Shown piece by piece: positions 14,450 through 44,139 of a stretch of 64,000 nt of DNA (position 1 is the stretch's first letter; every line of letters starts with the position of its first letter). The notes under the pieces are model-generated. The model had not been told where the DNA came from. It searched no databases and was given only the letters and a program-made list of their open reading frames with translations. Origin of the DNA: Escherichia coli (GTDB lineage Bacteria; Pseudomonadota; Gammaproteobacteria; Enterobacterales; Enterobacteriaceae); assembly GCF_050920415.1 (NCBI RefSeq), contig NZ_CP169309.1, one strand, 5' to 3'. A program made the position numbers and the translations under genes.

Positions 14450-14745
14450 CCTACGGACGAAAGTAGGCCGGATAAGGCGTTTATGCCGCATCCGGCTGTC
14501 GTGCGCCATTGCCTGATTCGACGCTGACGCGTCTTATCATGCCTACAAATTCCCGCGCCATCCGTAGGCCGGATAAGACGTTTACGCCGCATCCGGCAGT
14601 CGTGCACAGATGCCTGATGCGACGCTGACGCGTCTTATCATGCCTACAAATTCCCGCGCCATCCGTAGGCCGGATAAGGCGTTTATGCCGCATCCGGCAG
14701 TCGTGCGCCATTGCCTGATGCGACGCTGACGCGTCTTATCAGGCC
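14450..14745. repeat. BIME array: about 2.8 tandem copies of a 101-bp unit built from REP palindromes
   Basis: Unit beginning GTAGGCCGGATAAG recurs at 14464, 14565 and 14666; each unit contains GCCGCATCCGGC and GACGCGTCTTATCATGCCTAC palindromes. Confidence 0.85.
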
Positions 14746-36680: not shown

Positions 36681-38567
36681 TTACTCTTCCATCGCCTGGC
36701 GGATCTGATCCAACGACGCAGGATCATCAATGGTCGTCAGATCTCCAGGATCGCGTCCTTCGCAAATCGCCTGGATCGTGCGGCGCAGCATTTTTCCGGA
36801 TCGCGTTTTTGGCAATTGCGAGACAAACCAGACGTGCGCCGGGCGACCAAAGTTGCCAATCTGGCTGTCCACCAGCGCCATAATCGCCTTCTCTTGCGAG
36901 TGCGCCACCTCGCGATCTTCCAGGCTATCGCTCTCTTTCGGAATGACAAACGCCACCGCCACCTGCCCTTTCAGCGCATCTTTCACCCCAACCACCGCCA
37001 CTTCAGCAACGCCCGGATGACTGGAGATACTCTCTTCAATCTCGCGTGTGCCAAGCCGATGCCCGGCAACATTAATTACATCGTCAGTACGCCCGAGAAT
37101 AAAGTGATAACCGTCAGCATCGCGGATGCCCCAGTCAAAGGTGGCGTACACCGGACGGGAAAACAGCGACCAGTACGTCTTCACAAAGCGGTCGTCATCG
37201 CCCCAGATGGTTTGAATACACCCCGGCGGCAGCGGCCCTTCCACCACTACCATCCCTTTCTCGTTGACACCGCACGGTTCGCCGGTGACTTCATTGAGCA
37301 ACTGCACGTTGTATCCATACATCGGCACGCCGGGGCTTCCCAGACGTGTCGGCCTGTCGTCCAGACCACGAGCAATCGCCATAATCGGCCAGCCGGATTC
37401 GGTCTGCCAGTAATTGTCGATGACCGGCACATCCAGCGTATTGCTCACCCAACTGGCAGTCGGCTCATCCAGCGGCTCCCCCGCCAGATAGAGCACTTCC
37501 AGCGACGAGAGATCGTGTTTGCGAATTTCAGCGGTAGGGAATTTTTTCAGCACGCGGATGGCGGTCGGCGCTGAGAACATCCGGCTAACCTGATATTTCT
37601 CGACGATTTTCCACCACACACCGCAGTCAGGATAAGTCGGCAATCCTTCGTAAACAATGGTCGCCATCCCCGCCAGCAGCGGCGCGTAGACGATATACGA
37701 ATGCCCCACTACCCAGCCGATATCTGACGCACAGAAGAACACACCGCCCGCTTTGCCACCAAAAATGGTGTCCATTGAGGTCGCCAGCGCCACCGCATAA
37801 CCGCCGACGTCACGCTGTACACCTTTTGGTTTGCCGGTCGTGCCGGAGGTGTAGAGAATGCAGGAGGTTTCGTTGGATTCCAGCCACGCCACCGGCACCC
37901 GCGCGCCGATGTGCTGATGGCGCAATGACGCGAAATCGACATCCCGTCCGGTAACGCGCGCCATTTTCGCCAGCCCGCGATCCACCAGCAAAACGTGGCG
38001 CGGCTGATGCTGCGCCTGACTTATCGCATCGTCGAGCAATTTTTTATAAGGAATGATTTTGCCACCGCGCGCTCCGGCATCTGCCGAGACAATCAGCACC
38101 GGTTTAGCGTCATCAATCCGCGCAGCCACGCTGTGCGAGGCAAATCCACCAAACACTACCGAGTGAATAGCGCCAATGCGCGCGCAGGCCAGCAGGGTAA
38201 TATGCGCTTCGGCAATCATCGGCATATACACCAGCACCCGATCGCCACGCCGTACGCCCAGTGAGCGCAGCATTGACGCCACCGCGTTCACTTCGTCATG
38301 CAACTGGCGAAAGGTAAAAGTGCGCTCTTCTTCTGTTTCCGAAGAGACGGCAATTAATGCCAGCGCCTCTGGCTGTTTCTCCAGCCAGCGGTCGATGGCG
38401 TTGTGGCACAAATTGGTTCGGCCTTCACAAAACCAACGGGCAAACGGCGGATTGCTGTGATCGAGCGTTTGCGTAAAGGGCGTCTGCCAGTCAATACGCC
38501 GGGCCTGCTCGGCCCAGAATTGCTCCGGTTCGTTAATCGAACGCTGATAAAATTCGCTAAAAGACAT
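36681..38567 (-). CDS. prpE: Propionyl-CoA synthetase
   Basis: 628 aa acyl-CoA synthetase; AMP-binding motif YTSGTTGKPKG; matches PrpE. Confidence 0.96.
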   Translation of the reverse strand: MSFSEFYQRSINEPEQFWAEQARRIDWQTPFTQTLDHSNPPFARWFCEGRTNLCHNAIDRWLEKQPEALALIAVSSETEEERTFTFRQLHDEVNAVASMLRSLGVRRGDRVLVYMPMIAEAHITLLACARIGAIHSVVFGGFASHSVAARIDDAKPVLIVSADAGARGGKIIPYKKLLDDAISQAQHQPRHVLLVDRGLAKMARVTGRDVDFASLRHQHIGARVPVAWLESNETSCILYTSGTTGKPKGVQRDVGGYAVALATSMDTIFGGKAGGVFFCASDIGWVVGHSYIVYAPLLAGMATIVYEGLPTYPDCGVWWKIVEKYQVSRMFSAPTAIRVLKKFPTAEIRKHDLSSLEVLYLAGEPLDEPTASWVSNTLDVPVIDNYWQTESGWPIMAIARGLDDRPTRLGSPGVPMYGYNVQLLNEVTGEPCGVNEKGMVVVEGPLPPGCIQTIWGDDDRFVKTYWSLFSRPVYATFDWGIRDADGYHFILGRTDDVINVAGHRLGTREIEESISSHPGVAEVAVVGVKDALKGQVAVAFVIPKESDSLEDREVAHSQEKAIMALVDSQIGNFGRPAHVWFVSQLPKTRSGKMLRRTIQAICEGRDPGDLTTIDDPASLDQIRQAMEE

Positions 38568-38606
38568 AATGCTCTCCTGTTGAACTTACGCCTTACCGCC
38601 GTTTAC

Positions 38607-40058
38607 TTAAATGACGTACAGATCGAGATACTCATTGACCGGCATCTGTTCCAGGCGAGCTCTGTCGAGAGAAACGTCCAGAATGCGCTGCTGCTGTCGA
38701 GTCGGGAACTGGCGCGCGAGGTTGATTTTGAATTTATCGACCAGTTTTGGAATACCGTCCTGACGGCGGCGAGCATGACCAATTGGGTACTCCACCACCA
38801 CTTCTTCAAAGCGCGTGCCGTCGGTGAACTCAAGGGTAATGGCATTGGCGATGGCGCGTTTTTCCGGGTCGTGGTAGTCAGCGGTAAATGCCGGATCTTC
38901 AAAGCAATTGATCTTCTCGCGCAGGGTGTCGATGCGTTTATCTTGCGCAAGGTTGTCTTCGTAATCTGCCGCCGTTAAGCGCCCGAATAGCAGCGGGATC
39001 GCCACCATGTACTGAATGCAGTGGTCGCGGTCTGCCGGGTTATTGAGCGGCCCTTTTTTGTCGATGATGCGAATACAGGCTTCGTGGGTGCGAATGGTCA
39101 CTTTTTCGATATCTGCCGCCGTTTTGCCTGCTGCCTGCATCTGTTCATAGAGCGTCATCGCCGCTTCAACTGCCGTCTGGGAGTGGAACTCCGCCGGGAA
39201 GGAGATTTTGAACAGCACATTTTCCATGACGTAGGAACCGTACGGACGCTGGAAGCGGAACGATTCACCTTTAAAGGAGACGTCGTAGAAGCCCCATACC
39301 GGCGCAGTCAGAGCTGACGGGTAACCCATTTCGCCCGTTTTCGCCATCAGCGCCAGACGTACCGCGCGGGACGTGGCATCGCCCGCCGCCCAGGATTTAC
39401 GCGTGCCGGTGTTCGGTGCATGACGATAGGTGCGCAGCGACTGTCCGTCTACCCATGCCAGCGAAACGGCGTTGAGGATTTCATCACGGGTCAGGCCAAG
39501 CATTTCGGCGACCACGGCGGTGGAAGCCACTTTCACTAACAGAACGTGGTCAAGGCCGACGCGATTAAAGGAGTTTTCCAGCGCGATGCAGCCCTGAATT
39601 TCATGGGCTTTAATCATTGCGGTCAGCACCTGTTTCATGGTCAACGGCGCTTTGCCGCTGGCGACCGCGTTGCGTGAAAGCCAGTCTGCCGTTGCCAGAA
39701 TACCGCCGAGGTTGTCGGAAGGATGGCCCCACTCCACCGCCAGCCAGGTATCGTTGAAATCGAGCCAGCGGATCATCGCGCCAATGTTAAATGCCGCCTG
39801 GACGGGGTCGAGCTGGAACTGAGTTCCGGGGACGCGTACGCCGTTAGGTACAACGGTGCCGGGGACAATTGGCCCCAACAGTTTTTTACAGGCCGGGTAT
39901 TCGAGAGCTTCCAGACCGCAGCCGAGGGTGTCGAGCAGGCAGTAATGGGCGGTGTCATAGGCCACTCTGGAGCTGATTTCGTAGTTCATGACGTAATCGA
40001 CAATATCAATAATTTCGCGGTCGAATTCCGGGCGGATGTTGTTGATTTGAGCTGACAT
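38607..40058 (-). CDS. prpD: 2-methylcitrate dehydratase
   Basis: 483 aa MmgE/PrpD family; matches PrpD. Confidence 0.96.
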
Positions 40059-40091
40059 TGGGTACGTTTCCTTCTTGTTATTCGTAGAGGT

Positions 40092-41261
40092 TTACTGGCG
40101 CTTATCCAGCGCGACAAACTGGCGGTCTTCAGGGCCAACATAATTGGCGGAAGGACGGATAATTTTGTTGTCCTGACGTTGTTCGATAATGTGCGCCGCC
40201 CAGCCGGTGACGCGGGCGATAACAAACAGTGGCGTGAACATCTCGGTGGGAACGCCCATCATGTTGTAGGAAACAGCGGAGAACCAGTCGAGATTGGGGA
40301 ACATTTTTTTGCTCTCCCACATTACCGTTTCCAGGCGATCGGCGATGTTGTACATCTTCAGCGAGCCGCCTTCCTGCGAGAGCTGCTTCGCCACTCGTTT
40401 AATCACCTGATGACGCGGGTCGGCGATGGTATAAACCGGATGCCCAAAACCAATCACCACTTCTTTGTTTTCAACCCGCTTGCGGATATCAGCTTCGGCT
40501 TCGTCCGGCGTTTCATAGCGTTGCTGGATCTCCAGCGACACTTCATTCGCCCCGCCGTGTTTCGGCCCGCGCAGTGCGCCAATCGCGCCGATAATGGCTG
40601 AATACATGTCAGAGCCGGTGCCCGCAATCACCCGGCTGGTAAAGGTGGAGGCGTTAAACTCGTGTTCGGCGTACAGCACCAGCGAAATATGCATCGCCTT
40701 TTCCCAGCTTTGCGACGGCTTTTCGCCGTGCAGCAAATGCAGGAAGTGACCGCCGATGGAGTCGTCATCGGTTTCCGGCTGGATGCGTTCGCCGTTGTGG
40801 CTGTAGTGATACCAGTAGAGAAGAATCGAGCTAAGCGACGCTAATAATTTGTCGGCAATATCCCGCGCGCCGGAAACGGTATGCCCCTCTTTTTCTGGCA
40901 GCGTGCAGCCGAGCGCGGAAACCCCGGTGCGCATAACATCCATCGGGTGCGACGCCGCTGGTAAGGCTTCCAGCACGGTACGCACGTTAGCCGGTAAACC
41001 GCGCAGGGCTTTCAGTTTTGTTTTGTAAGCGGCGAGTTCGTCACGGGTCGGCAGTTTGCCATGGATCAGCAGATGCGCCACTTCTTCAAATTCGCAATGT
41101 TCCGCCAGATCAAGAATATCGTAGCCGCGGTAATGCAGGTCATTGCCGCTTTTACCCACCGTACACAGCGCCGTATTGCCCGCCGGAACGCCAGAAAGTG
41201 CCACAGATTTTTTCGGTTTAATGACATGGGTACTGTTTTGCAGGATCGTTGTGTCGCTCAT
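40092..41261 (-). CDS. prpC: 2-methylcitrate synthase
   Basis: 389 aa citrate synthase family; matches PrpC. Confidence 0.96.
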
Positions 41262-41302
41262 GTTGTCCTCGTCATTGTTATCATTTGTAGGGTCGAGAAT
41301 GT

Positions 41303-41395
41303 TGTCGGATGCGACGCTATGCGTCTTATCCGACCTACAGTTCAGTTCATCCCGTAGGCCTGATAAGCCGCGTCAGCGGCGCATCAGGCATCGGT
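41303..41395. repeat. REP elements between prpC and prpB
   Basis: GTCGGATGCGACGCTATGCGTCTTATCCGACCTAC and GTAGGCCTGATAAGCCGCGTCAGCGGCGCATCAGGC. Confidence 0.8.
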
Positions 41396-41423
41396 TGTCG
41401 AATACAACCAACGGGCGTTTGTT

Positions 41424-42314
41424 TTATTTCGTCTGGCTACGGGCAAACAGGTCGTCGAGCTTTTCTTCGTACTGGTAGTAGTTAATGCTTTCATACAGCT
41501 CGTTGCGGGTCTGCATGGTGTCGATGACGCTTTTCTGCGTGCCTTCCTGGCGCAGGACATTGTAGACATGTTCAGCGGCGCGGTTCATTGCGCGGAAAGC
41601 AGAAAGGGGATACAGCGCCATTGCGACATGGGCGCTGCGTAATTCGTCGGTGGTAAACAGCGGCGTGGCACCAAATTCAGTAATGTTGGCAAGGATCGGC
41701 ACCTGCACCGCATCGGCAAACTGGCGGTACATGGCGAGTTCGGTAATTGCTTCCGGGAACAACATCTCGGCACCCGCTTCAACATAGGCCTGCGCACGCT
41801 CGAGCGCCGCATCCAGCCCTTCAACCGCCAGCGCATCGGTGCGCGCCATGATCACAAAATCAGGATCGGTTTTCGCATCCACCGCCGCGCGGATCCGATC
41901 CACCATTTCTTCTTTTGAAACGATCGCTTTGTTCGGACGATGTCCGCAGCGTTTTGCTCCAACCTGATCTTCAATATGTAAGCCCGCCGCACCGGCTTTA
42001 ATCATCGATTTCACGGTGCGGGCAACGTTAAAGGCCGAAGAGCCAAAACCGATATCCGCATCCACCAGCAGCGGCAGCGAGCAGACGTCGGTGATACGAC
42101 GAATATCAGTCAGCACATCATCAAGAGTAGAAATACCGAGATCCGGCAACCCCAGCGAACCTGCCGCCACACCACCGCCGGAGAGATAAATCGCCTGATA
42201 TCCGGCACGCTGCGCCAGCAGCGCATGGTTGGCGTTAATGGTGCCGACAATCTGCAATGGATTTTCTTTAGACAGTGCAGCGCGAAACGCTTTACCTGGA
42301 GAGTGTAGAGACAT
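41424..42314 (-). CDS. prpB: 2-methylisocitrate lyase
   Basis: 296 aa isocitrate lyase/PEP mutase family; matches PrpB. Confidence 0.96.
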
Positions 42315-42360
42315 AGCCCATCCTTTGTTATCAACTTGTTATTTACGTTGATAAACTCAG

Positions 42361-42376
42361 AGCAAGGGGTGTGCCA
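42361..42376 (-). promoter_or_regulatory. Sigma-54 (-24/-12) promoter of prpBCDE
   Basis: Reverse strand reads TGGCAC-ACCCC-TTGCT (GG-N10-GC spacing), 47 bp upstream of the prpB ATG. Confidence 0.8.
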
Positions 42377-42451
42377 CAATTACCTGGATGAAATTAAATG
42401 TTTTATTTCAATTTGTTATAGATAAAGCCATGAAGTAATCCGCAAATATGC

Positions 42452-42509
42452 GTTTCAGTTAACGTTTCAGGCAATGTTTCACTGCGTTTCATTGCAACAA
42501 TTATGAAAC
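42452..42509. promoter_or_regulatory. Phased GTTTCA repeats and inverted repeat GTTTCAT-N10-ATGAAAC (candidate enhancer-binding sites) in the prpR-prpB intergenic region
   Basis: GTTTCA at 42452, 42464, 42476 and 42486 (10-12 bp spacing); ATGAAAC at 42503-42509; 80-130 bp upstream of the sigma-54 promoter. Confidence 0.45.
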
Positions 42510-42552
42510 AAGACTAAACCCATTATTCGGTTTCTTAACTTTGCGGTGCGCT

Positions 42553-44139
42553 ATGGCACATCCACCACGGCTGAATGACGACAAACCGGTTATCTGGACG
42601 GTATCTGTAACGCGGCTGTTCGAGCTATTTCGCGATATCAGCCTCGAGTTTGATCACCTGGCAAACATTACTCCTATCCAGCTTGGCTTTGAAAAAGCAG
42701 TGACCTACATCCGCAAAAAACTGGCCAGCGAACGCTGCGACGCCATCATTGCCGCTGGCTCTAACGGTGCGTACCTGAAAAGCCGCCTGTCGGTACCGGT
42801 GATTCTGATAAAACCGAGTGGCTATGATGTGTTACAGGCACTGGCAAAAGCTGGAAAACTCACCTCTTCTATCGGCGTTGTCACCTATCAGGAAACCATT
42901 CCGGCACTGGTAGCGTTTCAAAAAACCTTTAATTTGCGCCTCGACCAACGTAGCTACATTACCGAAGAAGACGCACGTGGGCAGATTAACGAGCTAAAAG
43001 CCAACGGCACCGAAGCGGTGGTCGGCGCGGGGCTGATTACCGATCTGGCAGAAGAAGCCGGAATGACCGGAATTTTTATCTATTCTGCCGCCACCGTGCG
43101 CCAGGCATTTAGCGATGCGCTGGATATGACGCGCATGTCGTTACGCCATAATACTCACGATGCCACCCGCAACGCCCTGCGTACTCGTTACGTGCTGGGC
43201 GATATGCTCGGTCAATCACCACAGATGGAACAGGTACGGCAGACTATTTTGCTGTATGCCCGCTCCAGTGCGGCGGTGTTGATTGAAGGGGAAACGGGGA
43301 CGGGCAAAGAGCTGGCGGCCCAGGCGATTCATCGGGAATATTTTGCCCGCCACGATGCGCGACAGGGCAAAAAGTCACATCCGTTTGTTGCCGTCAACTG
43401 CGGGGCGATTGCTGAATCTCTGCTGGAAGCGGAGCTGTTTGGCTATGAGGAAGGGGCGTTTACCGGCTCGCGACGCGGAGGACGCGCCGGGCTGTTTGAA
43501 ATCGCCCACGGTGGCACGCTGTTTCTTGACGAGATAGGCGAAATGCCGCTGCCGTTGCAGACCCGGCTGCTGCGGGTGCTGGAAGAAAAAGAGGTCACCC
43601 GCGTCGGCGGGCATCAGCCTGTTCCGGTGGATGTGCGGGTTATTAGCGCCACTCACTGCAATCTCGAAGAGGATATGCAGCAAGGGCGTTTTCGCCGTGA
43701 TCTGTTTTATCGACTGAGTATTTTGCGTCTGCAATTGCCGCCGCTACGCGAGCGGGTGGCGGATATTCTGCCGCTGGCGGAAAGCTTTTTGAAAGTGTCA
43801 CTGGCGGCACTTACTGCGCCGTTTTCTTCCGCGTTACGTCAGGGATTACAGGCAAGTGAAACTGTGCTGTTGCGCTACAACTGGCCGGGAAATATTCGTG
43901 AACTGCGCAATATGATGGAACGACTGGCGCTATTTTTAAGTGTGGAACCGACGCCGGATTTAACGCCGCAATTTTTGCAGTTGCTACTGCCGGAACTGGC
44001 GCGCGAGTCGGCGGAAACTCCCGGTCCATGCTTACTGACGCCACAACAGGCACTGGAGAAATTTAATGGCGATAAAACAGCCGCGGCGAATTATTTAGGT
44101 ATCAGCCGAACGACATTCTGGCGGCGGCTGAAAAACTGA
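42553..44139 (+). CDS. prpR: Sigma-54-dependent activator of propionate catabolism
   Basis: 528 aa from ATG 42553 ([15 protein letters not shown]...); AAA+ sigma-54 interaction domain with GETGTGKE Walker A and GAFTG motif; C-terminal HTH. Confidence 0.95.

What the first reader, a model, noticed from the sequence alone, without database searches (positions are those of the whole stretch)
42361..42509. prpB sigma-54 promoter with phased GTTTCA repeats as candidate PrpR enhancer sites
A canonical -24/-12 element (TGGCAC-N5-TTGCT on the reverse strand) sits 47 bp upstream of prpB. Between 80 and 130 bp further upstream, and directly before prpR, are four GTTTCA motifs spaced 10-12 bp apart (same helix face), the last forming an inverted repeat GTTTCAT-N10-ATGAAAC. 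Spacing and position fit upstream activator sites for the divergently encoded PrpR.
Basis: seen in the sequence. Interest (0 to 1): 0.35.

Follow-up and report, generated by a model that had tools for sequence, protein, structure and literature searches.

The report
Known PrpR enhancer and prpB promoter
This is the ordinary control region of the E. coli propionate-breakdown operon: a sigma-54 promoter for prpB and, about 100-160 bp upstream, a cluster of GTTTCA sites that match the published binding motif of the activator PrpR.

Summary
However, the feature is already known.

- **Promoter.** TGGCAC-N5-TTGCT lies at 42361-42376 on the minus strand, 47 bp before the prpB ATG. Its 17-mer is identical to the sigma-54 ChIP-seq motif reported upstream of prpB in E. 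coli K-12.
- **Repeats.** Four GTTTCA copies start at 42452, 42464, 42476 and 42486, and one inverted copy lies at 42504-42509. No other hexamer in the 64 kb reaches five copies in 60 bp, and 500 shuffles never exceeded three.
- **Match to the literature.** A review lists the PrpR enhancer consensus as CGTTTCATGAAACG, from Salmonella footprinting. This is the same half-site.
- **Conservation.** In 20 genera of Gamma- and Betaproteobacteria, GTTTCA/TGAAAC is by far the most enriched hexamer between prpB and prpR (86 observed, 5.3 expected). Of 81 loci, 76 carry a cluster of at least three copies just upstream of prpR, and none carries one elsewhere.
- **Surrounding architecture.** The sigma-54 promoter, an IHF-like site between promoter and repeats, and the PrpR recognition helix are also conserved.
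- **The only nuance.** Escherichia lacks the tight Salmonella/Citrobacter palindrome and has same-strand half-sites 12 bp apart instead.

Interest is low.

The parts
42361..42377 (-). Sigma-54 (-24/-12) promoter of prpBCDE: GTGGCACACCCCTTGCT, with GG at 42374-42375 and GC at 42362-42363.
   Evidence: The pattern match is. The 17-mer is identical to the sigma-54 ChIP-seq motif upstream of prpB in K-12 (PMC4591121). An equivalent GG/GC promoter was found in 75 of 79 related loci. No sigma-70-type promoter was found in 42300-42570.
42315..42350 (-). Inferred prpB 5' leader, with the transcription start at about 42350 (36 nt before the ATG).
   Evidence: The start is inferred from the -12 GC position. 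It agrees with the 'distance 36' entry for prpB in PMC4591121 Table 1. It was not measured here.
42406..42418 (+). IHF-like site TTTCAATTTGTTA, with 1 mismatch to WATCAANNNNTTR, at about -56 to -68 in a 72% A+T spacer.
   Evidence: The scan results are. IHF-like sites occur at a similar position in many loci, with perfect matches in several Oxalobacteraceae. The literature states that IHF is required for prpBCDE expression.
42452..42457 (+). Half-site H1, GTTTCA (about -102 to -107). It reads GTGTCA in Citrobacter, Salmonella and Pluralibacter. It also overlaps a Cra-like box (42446-42459) and the best, though weak, CRP-like match (42446-42467).
42464..42469 (+). Half-site H2, (C)GTTTCA. It is invariant in Escherichia, Citrobacter, Salmonella and Pluralibacter, and it corresponds to the left half of the Salmonella/Citrobacter palindrome CGTTTCATGAAACG.
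42476..42481 (+). Half-site H3, GTTTCA. It is specific to Escherichia (ATTTCA in E. albertii, not a half-site in other genera).
42486..42509 (.). Distal dyad H4-spacer-H5: GTTTCATTGCAACAATTATGAAAC (GTTTCA-N12-TGAAAC). This is the most conserved element of the region.
   Evidence: One search reports it as inverted repeat I5. Both half-sites and the spacer bases TTGCAACA are invariant in alignment A2. The exact GTTTCA-N12-TGAAAC pattern is present in all Escherichia, Citrobacter, Salmonella and Pluralibacter-MAG loci.
42553..44139 (+). prpR, the sigma-54-dependent activator. Its domains are PrpR_N sensor (residues 36-196), AAA+ Sigma54_activat (219-393) and Fis-type HTH_8 (498-527).
   Evidence: NCBIfam NF011953 scores 1006.7 bits against a cut-off of 703. 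PDB 2pju is the PrpR N-terminal domain.
36681..42314 (-). The prpBCDE operon driven by the promoter: prpB 41424-42314, prpC 40092-41261, prpD 38607-40058, prpE 36681-38567.
   Evidence: ORFs are listed. All four pass NCBIfam equivalog cut-offs. The same gene order is annotated in a 100%-identical E. coli genome.

Best explanation
The region 42361-42509 is the divergent control region of the E. coli propionate (2-methylcitrate cycle) locus.

**Proposed mechanism**
1. Sigma-54 RNA polymerase sits as a closed complex on GTGGCACACCCCTTGCT (42361-42377).
2. PrpR is encoded divergently from 42553. Its C-terminal Fis-type helix-turn-helix binds the array of GTTTCA/TGAAAC half-sites at 42452-42509, about -102 to -159 from the transcription start.
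3. When the N-terminal domain senses 2-methylcitrate, the AAA+ domains assemble on this enhancer.
4. The A+T-rich spacer carries an IHF-like site (42406-42418). It bends so that PrpR touches sigma-54, and ATP hydrolysis opens the promoter for prpBCDE.

**Which half-sites matter most**
- The core of the enhancer is probably the conserved half-site at 42464 plus the dyad GTTTCA-N12-TGAAAC at 42486-42509.
- The half-sites at 42452 and 42476 are Escherichia-specific additions spaced about one helical turn apart.

**Shown versus inferred**
- Shown here: the sequence elements, their statistical exceptionality, their conservation and co-occurrence with prpR, and their identity to published motifs.
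- Taken from the literature: dependence on sigma-54, IHF, CRP and 2-methylcitrate, and PrpR footprinting in Salmonella.
- Inferred: that E. coli PrpR contacts each of these five hexamers, and in what stoichiometry.
For: - **Sequence and statistics:**
- **Gene identities and PrpR domains:**
- **Published PrpR enhancer consensus** CGTTTCATGAAACG.
- **Looping model:** PrpR binds an enhancer-like element 5' of PprpBCDE and loops to sigma-54 RNAP.
- **E. coli operator:** the E. coli PprpB contains a PrpR operator overlapped by a CRP site, and mutating that site abolished PrpR regulation (citing Lee 2005).
- **Sigma-54 binding:** the ChIP-seq motif upstream of prpB in K-12 is identical, and there is a gSELEX peak.
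- **Unbiased hexamer enrichment in 20 genera:** GTTTCA ranks first, with 86 observed against 5.3 expected (z = 37), and is present in 20 of 20.
- **Specificity of the cluster:** 76 of 81 loci have at least 3 half-sites per 80 bp within 260 nt upstream of prpR, and no such cluster occurs elsewhere in 436 kb.
- **Promoter and position:** a sigma-54 promoter is present in 75 of 79 loci, with the array at -100 to -235 and IHF-like sites in between.
- **DNA-binding helix:** the PrpR recognition helix LGISRTT(L/F)WR(R/K)L is nearly invariant across these genera.
- **Close relatives:** H2 and the H4-H5 dyad are invariant in Escherichia, Citrobacter, Salmonella and Pluralibacter.
- **Within E. coli:** the 81-bp enhancer is at least 95% identical, mostly 98.8%, in 5218 of 5426 complete E. 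coli genomes.
Against: - No direct binding data for E. coli PrpR on these bases could be read. The primary papers (Palacios & Escalante-Semerena 2000 and 2004; Lee et al. 2005) are not held.
- The full 14-bp published palindrome is absent from the window. The best matches have 3 mismatches, which is chance level.
- Within Escherichia the whole 81 bp is so conserved that half-sites are not measurably more constrained than spacers (1 of 30 versus 5 of 51 variable columns, p = 0.27).
- H1 overlaps Cra-like and weak CRP-like matches, so not every hexamer need be a PrpR contact.
Confidence: 0.9

Rival explanations
1. The GTTTCA/TGAAAC hexamers are, wholly or mainly, operators for global carbon regulators rather than PrpR sites. 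The candidates are Cra (FruR), whose half-site is also TGAAAC, and CRP.
For: - A Cra-consensus match with 1 mismatch lies at 42446-42459 on the minus strand and uses H1. The pattern RSTGAAWCSNTHHW is recalled from memory.
- PMC5829826 states that a Cra binding site had been reported in the prpB regulatory region.
- A CRP site is said to overlap the PrpR operator, and a single CRP site is listed for the prpR-prpBCDE pair.
- The best CRP-like 22-mer in the intergenic region is 42446-42467.
Against: - The same paper could not detect Cra binding to prpB DNA by EMSA.
- Cra-pattern matches occur at chance frequency in the window (17 observed, 12 expected).
- No site within 3 mismatches of TGTGA-N6-TCACA exists in the intergenic region, and the best candidate has only 6 of 10 core bases.
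- One Cra or CRP operator cannot account for five copies.
- The array tracks prpR in Betaproteobacteria, in varied arrangements.
- The published PrpR consensus contains this half-site.
Confidence: 0.04
2. The array works chiefly as an operator for autoregulation of prpR. On this view PrpR bound at 42486-42509 occludes or modulates the prpR sigma-70 promoter, and enhancer function for prpB is secondary. This is not exclusive of the main explanation.
For: - The array lies 44-101 nt upstream of the prpR ATG, so it must overlap or abut the prpR promoter.
- The spacer of the H4-H5 dyad (TTGCAACA) is invariant across genera. It resembles a -35 hexamer (TTGCAA), with TAAACC 17 bp downstream. This is my own inspection of the sequence.
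- The half-sites sit at the prpR-proximal end of the intergenic region in nearly all loci.
Against: - The consensus scan found no sigma-70 promoter here.
- The literature describes the prpR promoter as propionate-independent and CRP-controlled.
- Distance and orientation relative to the sigma-54 promoter are those of a typical enhancer in 75 loci.
Confidence: 0.25
3. The repeats are a by-product of slippage of a 12-bp unit (CGTTTCAGNNAA) and have no function of their own.
For: - The units at 42451-42462 and 42463-42474 are 83% identical tandem copies.
- E. coli TB354 carries an extra 12-bp copy. Slippage therefore does occur here.
Against: - The hexamer is conserved across 20 genera while the spacers and arrangements change.
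- Clusters are found only next to prpR.
- The hexamer matches the published PrpR consensus.
Confidence: 0.01

Closest known systems
PrpR enhancer of the Salmonella enterica prpBCDE promoter (Palacios & Escalante-Semerena 2000 and 2004; consensus CGTTTCATGAAACG as listed in PMC4987338 Table 1)
   Same: - Orthologous activator, with the same divergent prpR-prpBCDE layout.
- Same sigma-54 promoter and IHF requirement.
- Same GTTTCA/TGAAAC half-site.
- The half-site at 42464 and the dyad GTTTCA-N12-TGAAAC at 42486-42509 align base for base with S. enterica subsp. arizonae and diarizonae.
   Different: - Salmonella and Citrobacter have a tight palindrome, CGTTTCATGAAACG, on the promoter side. Escherichia keeps only its left half (CGTTTCAGGCAAT).
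- Escherichia instead has two extra same-strand half-sites, at 42452 and 42476, spaced 12 bp apart.
- The array lies about 23-37 bp closer to the promoter in Escherichia (-102 against -125 to -139).
NtrC enhancer at glnAp2, the general bacterial enhancer-binding protein (bEBP) paradigm. This comparison is from established knowledge; the consensus TGCACC(A/T)4TGGTGCA is listed.
   Same: - An AAA+ activator with a C-terminal Fis-type HTH.
- Multiple sites about 100-150 bp upstream of a -24/-12 promoter.
- Activation by looping and ATP hydrolysis.
   Different: - NtrC sites are strict 17-bp dyads. The PrpR arrays mix inverted and direct half-sites with variable spacing.
- PrpR is ligand-controlled (2-methylcitrate, PrpR_N domain) rather than phosphorylation-controlled.
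- PrpR needs IHF.
Cra (FruR) operator
   Same: It shares the hexamer TGAAAC. A Cra-like match overlaps H1, and a Cra site in the prpB regulatory region has been reported.
   Different: - The Cra operator is a single, roughly 14-bp imperfect palindrome in the order TGAAAC-GTTTCA. Here the order in the Salmonella-type palindrome is GTTTCA-TGAAAC, and there are five copies.
- The EMSA for Cra on prpB DNA was negative.

Membership tests
Sigma-54-dependent (-24/-12) promoter | GG and GC dinucleotides exactly 10 bp apart within TGGCAC-N5-TTGCW | tested here: met
   TGGCACACCCCTTGCT lies at 42361-42376 on the minus strand, with 0 mismatches to TGGCACNNNNNTTGCT.
Sigma-54-dependent (-24/-12) promoter | Occupied by sigma-54 holoenzyme | not testable with these tools
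The literature does cover it: the identical 17-mer GTGGCACACCCCTTGCT is the motif under a sigma-54 ChIP-seq peak upstream of prpB in K-12, and there is a gSELEX peak.
Sigma-54-dependent (-24/-12) promoter | Placed upstream of, and oriented toward, a gene, with a cognate bEBP in the genome | tested here: met
   The promoter is 47 bp from the prpB ATG on the same strand, and prpR is encoded divergently.
PrpR enhancer (upstream activator sequence) | Contains the experimentally derived PrpR recognition sequence | tested here: inconclusive
   The half-site (C)GTTTCA of the published CGTTTCATGAAACG is present five times. The full 14-bp palindrome is absent, with best matches at 3 mismatches, which is chance level.
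PrpR enhancer (upstream activator sequence) | Lies about 80-250 bp upstream of the sigma-54 promoter it serves, with a bendable or IHF site between | tested here: met
   The half-sites are at -102 to -159. A 75-bp spacer of 72% A+T contains an IHF-like site with 1 mismatch.
PrpR enhancer (upstream activator sequence) | Conserved in orthologous prpR-prpB loci and specific to them | tested here: met
   It is the top-enriched hexamer in 20 of 20 genera. Clusters occur in 76 of 81 loci and none occurs elsewhere. H2 and H4-H5 are invariant in alignment A2.
PrpR enhancer (upstream activator sequence) | Physically bound by PrpR and required for 2-methylcitrate-dependent activation in E. coli | not testable with these tools
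   Only indirect evidence exists. Mutation of the CRP site overlapping the PrpR operator abolished PrpR regulation (citing Lee 2005). The primary papers are not held.
PrpR (bEBP) protein family, for the divergent gene | PrpR_N sensor + Sigma54_activat AAA+ + Fis-type HTH; passes the equivalog model | tested here: met
   NF011953 scores 1006.7 bits (cut-off 703) and TIGR02329 scores 884 bits. Pfam domains PF06506, PF00158 and PF02954 are present.
Cra operator | A single imperfect palindrome matching RSTGAAWCSNTHHW and bound by Cra | tested here: inconclusive
   A 1-mismatch match lies at 42446-42459, but matches occur at chance frequency in the window. The published EMSA on prpB DNA was negative.
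CRP site | TGTGA-N6-TCACA core | tested here: not met
   No match within 3 mismatches exists in 42315-42552. The best 22-mer has 6 of 10 core bases. The literature nevertheless reports a CRP site overlapping the PrpR operator, and I could not place it.

The most novel reading that the evidence does not exclude
PrpR may recognise single 6-7 bp half-sites (aTGAAACr) rather than a fixed dyad.

**What the data show**
- Across genera the array holds 3-7 half-sites. Their number, orientation and spacing turn over freely.
- The arrays keep a convergent '+...+ -...-' layout and a preferred same-strand spacing of 11-12 bp.
- Escherichia has swapped the promoter-proximal palindrome of Salmonella and Citrobacter for direct repeats one helical turn apart. 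A natural 12-bp duplication adds a sixth site in one strain.

**What it would mean if true**
- The enhancer would act as a flexible landing pad that templates the PrpR oligomer protomer by protomer.
- This might explain the reported roughly threefold difference in output between the Salmonella and E. coli pPro systems.

**Caveat.** This may already be described in the comparative study by Suvorova et al. 2012, which I could not read.
Probability: 0.25. Interest if true: 0.35.

Novelty: already known. Interest (0 to 1): 0.12.

Why it matters
- **Little new biology.** The prpBCDE sigma-54 promoter and the PrpR enhancer are established, and the region is already used as the pPro propionate-inducible expression system and in propionate biosensors.
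- **Practical value.** The work gives a base-level map of the five E. coli half-sites. It shows which three are deeply conserved (42464, 42486, 42504) and which two are Escherichia-specific (42452, 42476). This could guide promoter engineering.
- **Possible regulatory crowding.** The stretch 42446-42467 may be shared by PrpR, CRP and Cra.

Tried and rejected
- **Primary papers not held.** I could not read Palacios & Escalante-Semerena 2004 (DOI) or 2000 (PMC94363), Lee et al. 2005 (PMC1070369), Lee & Keasling 2005 (PMC1287719) or Suvorova et al. 2012 (PMC3370838). The footprint boundaries and the published CRP site therefore could not be compared base by base.
- **Sigma-70 promoter scan.** Nothing was found in 42300-42570, so the prpR promoter remains unplaced.
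- **CRP consensus scans.** They found no convincing site.
- **Substitution test within Escherichia.** Comparing half-sites with spacers was uninformative because the whole 81 bp is nearly invariant.
- **Degenerate inverted partners.** By eye I looked for partners 17-18 bp from each direct-repeat half-site. None was better than 3 of 6 bases, so the direct repeats are not hidden dyads.
- **Chance or slippage origin.** Rejected on the conservation data.
- **Cra operator.** Considered and largely rejected.

Full report
**1. What is in the sequence**

The window is an E. coli chromosome segment covering lacI-lacZYA, cynXST-cynR, codAB, prpEDCB, prpR and the yah genes. The 371 bp around the finding are 100% identical to E. 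coli MFDS1022581 and about 95% identical to most of 5,218 complete E. coli genomes.

The genes are placed as follows:
- prpB: 41424-42314, minus strand
- prpC: 40092-41261, minus strand
- prpD: 38607-40058, minus strand
- prpE: 36681-38567, minus strand
- prpR: 42553-44139, plus strand

All five products pass the curated NCBIfam equivalog cut-offs. PrpR has the expected PrpR_N, Sigma54_activat and HTH_8 domains. The solved structure 2pju is its N-terminal domain.

**2. Checking the observation**

The -24/-12 element TGGCACACCCCTTGCT is on the minus strand at 42361-42376, 47 bp from the prpB ATG.

GTTTCA occurs on the plus strand at 42452, 42464, 42476 and 42486, with spacings of 12, 12 and 10. 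It occurs on the minus strand at 42504-42509. The last two copies form GTTTCAT-N10-ATGAAAC.

The hexamer is not over-represented in the window as a whole (40 observed, 37 expected), but the cluster is exceptional:
- Five copies lie within 58 bp, against at most one per 60 bp anywhere else.
- In 500 dinucleotide-preserving shuffles the maximum per 60 bp never exceeded three.
- No other hexamer in the 64 kb reaches five copies in 60 bp.

'Same helix face' is only approximately true, since cumulative offsets of 0, 12, 24 and 34 bp drift by up to about 100 degrees.

**3. What the literature already says**

A review of Salmonella enhancer-binding proteins lists the PrpR enhancer sequence as CGTTTCATGAAACG. 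It cites Palacios & Escalante-Semerena 2004 (PMC4987338 Table 1).

Other papers add the following:
- Expression needs PrpR, 2-methylcitrate, sigma-54, IHF and cAMP-CRP.
- In the E. coli PprpB a CRP site overlaps 'the PrpR operator', and mutating it abolished PrpR regulation (citing Lee et al. 2005).

For the promoter, the sigma-54 ChIP-seq study of E. coli K-12 lists a peak upstream of prpB with the motif GTGGCACACCCCTTGCT and a distance of 36. This is identical to window 42361-42377 on the minus strand. It places the transcription start at about 42350, the same position I infer from the -12 GC. A gSELEX peak for sigma-54 holoenzyme maps to the same spacer. The Salmonella promoter was bound in ChIP-chip.

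I could not read the primary footprinting paper or Lee et al. 2005. From memory only, the 2004 abstract reports two sites with dyad symmetry. That fits what I see in the Salmonella loci described below.

**4. Comparative evidence**

I built an alignment of PrpR N-terminal domains. With it I retrieved 80 loci from one-genome-per-species contigs. They cover:
- Enterobacterales: Escherichia, Citrobacter, Salmonella, Pluralibacter, Pseudocitrobacter, Entomohabitans, Shimwellia, Xenorhabdus and Photorhabdus.
- Betaproteobacteria: many Oxalobacteraceae and Gallionellaceae.

Almost all have a divergent prpB or a PrpB-like gene.

An unbiased hexamer count in the prpB-prpR spacers of 20 genus representatives ranks GTTTCA/TGAAAC first. 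It has 86 occurrences against 5.3 expected (z = 37) and is present in all 20. The next-ranked hexamers are overlapping shifts of it. With flanks, the half-site reads aTGAAACr.

A cluster of at least three half-sites within 80 bp lies within 260 nt upstream of prpR in 76 of 81 loci. No such cluster lies anywhere else in the 436 kb of fetched DNA.

A GG/GC sigma-54 promoter facing prpB is found in 75 of 79 loci. The half-site array sits at -100 to -235 from the inferred start, and an IHF-like WATCAANNNNTTR match often lies in between. Several Oxalobacteraceae have a perfect match. In Escherichia it is TTTCAATTTGTTA at 42406-42418, with one mismatch.

The PrpR C-terminal recognition helix, LGISRTT(L/F)WR(R/K)L, is nearly invariant across these genera. 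This is consistent with one conserved half-site.

**5. Fine structure in the close relatives**

Alignment A2 covers the window, three other Escherichia, three Citrobacter, two Salmonella subspecies and a Pluralibacter MAG. It shows the following:
- CGTTTCA at 42463-42469 (H2) is invariant.
- GTTTCATTGCAACA....TGAAACA at 42486-42510 (H4, spacer and H5) is invariant.
- H1 (42452) reads GTGTCA outside Escherichia.
- H3 (42476) exists only in Escherichia and is ATTTCA in E. albertii.

Conversely, S. arizonae, C. youngae and the Pluralibacter MAG have TGAAAC directly after H2. This gives the published palindrome CGTTTCATGAAACG, where Escherichia has CGTTTCAGGCAAT. In the window the best matches to the 14-mer have three mismatches, which is chance level. 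GTTTCA-N12-TGAAAC is present in every Escherichia, Citrobacter, Salmonella and Pluralibacter-MAG locus.

More widely, arrays contain 3-7 half-sites. The plus-oriented copies are usually on the prpB side and the minus-oriented copies on the prpR side. The commonest neighbour spacings are 12 bp (same strand, 8 cases), 11 bp (same strand, 5 cases) and 17-18 bp (convergent, 7 cases).

Within E. coli the 81-bp enhancer is at least 95% identical, mostly 98.8%, in all 5,218 genomes that carry it. Differences among Escherichia fall mainly in the H2-H3 spacer and at 42483, and the one change inside a hexamer is the G-to-A at 42476 (H3) in E. albertii. There are too few differences for a significant contrast (p = 0.27). 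One strain, TB354, has a 12-bp tandem duplication that adds a sixth half-site.

**6. Mechanism**

The best-supported explanation (confidence 0.9) is the textbook one:
1. Sigma-54 holoenzyme is pre-bound at 42361-42377.
2. PrpR binds through its HTH to the half-site array at 42452-42509.
3. IHF bends the A+T-rich spacer.
4. 2-methylcitrate-activated PrpR oligomers hydrolyse ATP and open the promoter for prpBCDE.

The sequence anatomy and its conservation are shown here. The genetic requirements are taken from the literature. Occupancy of each individual hexamer by E. coli PrpR is inferred. I expect H2 and the H4-H5 dyad to be the core sites and H1 and H3 to be accessory.

**7. Rivals**

*Cra or CRP operators.* A Cra-like match (ACTGAAACGCATAT, 42446-42459, minus strand) overlaps H1. 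A Cra site in the prpB regulatory region has been reported, but Cra did not shift prpB DNA in an EMSA. Matches to the Cra pattern are at chance frequency in the window. No credible CRP core exists in the spacer, although the literature places a CRP site overlapping the PrpR operator. These factors may share the 42446-42467 stretch, but they cannot explain five copies or the conservation in Betaproteobacteria (confidence 0.04).

*Autoregulation of prpR.* A role for the H4-H5 dyad in prpR autoregulation is plausible and not exclusive of the main explanation. It is untested, no sigma-70 promoter was located, and the prpR promoter is described as propionate-independent (confidence 0.25).

*Functionless slippage.* Pure slippage without function is excluded by the conservation data.

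**8. Comparison, novelty and score**

This is the E. coli ortholog of the Salmonella PrpR enhancer plus the known prpBCDE sigma-54 promoter, so it is already known. The one detail I did not find stated in any paper I could read is that Escherichia replaced the promoter-proximal palindrome with same-strand half-sites about one helical turn apart. More generally, the PrpR array is architecturally plastic around a fixed half-site. This may already be covered by Suvorova et al. 2012, which is not held. Interest is 0.12.

Noticed in passing
window 42324-42354: The prpB leader carries the palindrome TTATCAAC-N11-GTTGATAA, which straddles the inferred transcription start. It also has a perfect IHF-consensus match, TATCAACTTGTTA (42329-42341). 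The 19-nt element TTTGTTATCAACTTGTTAT has a 79% copy at 42401-42419, which is the IHF-like site between promoter and enhancer. The leader copy is conserved in Escherichia, Citrobacter and Pluralibacter. Its function is unknown.
   Followed up: partly
L034, L036, L038, L041, L044, L052, L055, L056, L072, L080 (leaders just upstream of 2500); L043, L049: A single GTTTCA half-site lies inside the prpB leader, about +12 to +20 from the sigma-54 start, in ten betaproteobacterial representatives. It occurs in the opposite orientation in Xenorhabdus and Photorhabdus. That makes 12 of 25 representatives, far above chance. It is absent from Escherichia, Citrobacter and Salmonella. It might be a downstream PrpR contact, but this is unexplained.
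   Followed up: partly
L084 (E. coli TB354), locus 151-220: A 12-bp tandem duplication, CGTTTCAGTTAA, adds a sixth GTTTCA half-site to the enhancer of this strain.
   Followed up: partly
window 41262-41423: The prpB-prpC spacer consists of two REP-like palindromic units. A published comparison reports that the number of these repeats differs between E. coli strains.
   Followed up: no
window 14466-14745: There are three tandem copies of about 100 bp that match Rfam naRNA4 (RF02564, a REP325-type nucleoid-associated RNA).
   Followed up: no
L035-L037, L040-L042, L044, L047, L048, L060, L068: In Herminiimonas, Herbaspirillum and Duganella the gene divergent from prpR is only 36-40% identical to PrpB. 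It is a paralogue of the isocitrate-lyase/PEP-mutase family. It nevertheless carries the same sigma-54 promoter and TGAAAC array. The motif therefore follows PrpR, not PrpB.
   Followed up: partly
window 42380-42445: The spacer between promoter and enhancer is the most variable part of the intergenic region among Escherichia. It accounts for most of the roughly 5% divergence of this window from typical E. coli, whereas the enhancer itself is 98.8-100% conserved.
   Followed up: partly
window 42541-42553: The mechanical ORF list starts prpR at a TTG at 42541 (532 aa). Genome annotation and the family models support the ATG at 42553 (528 aa).
   Followed up: yes
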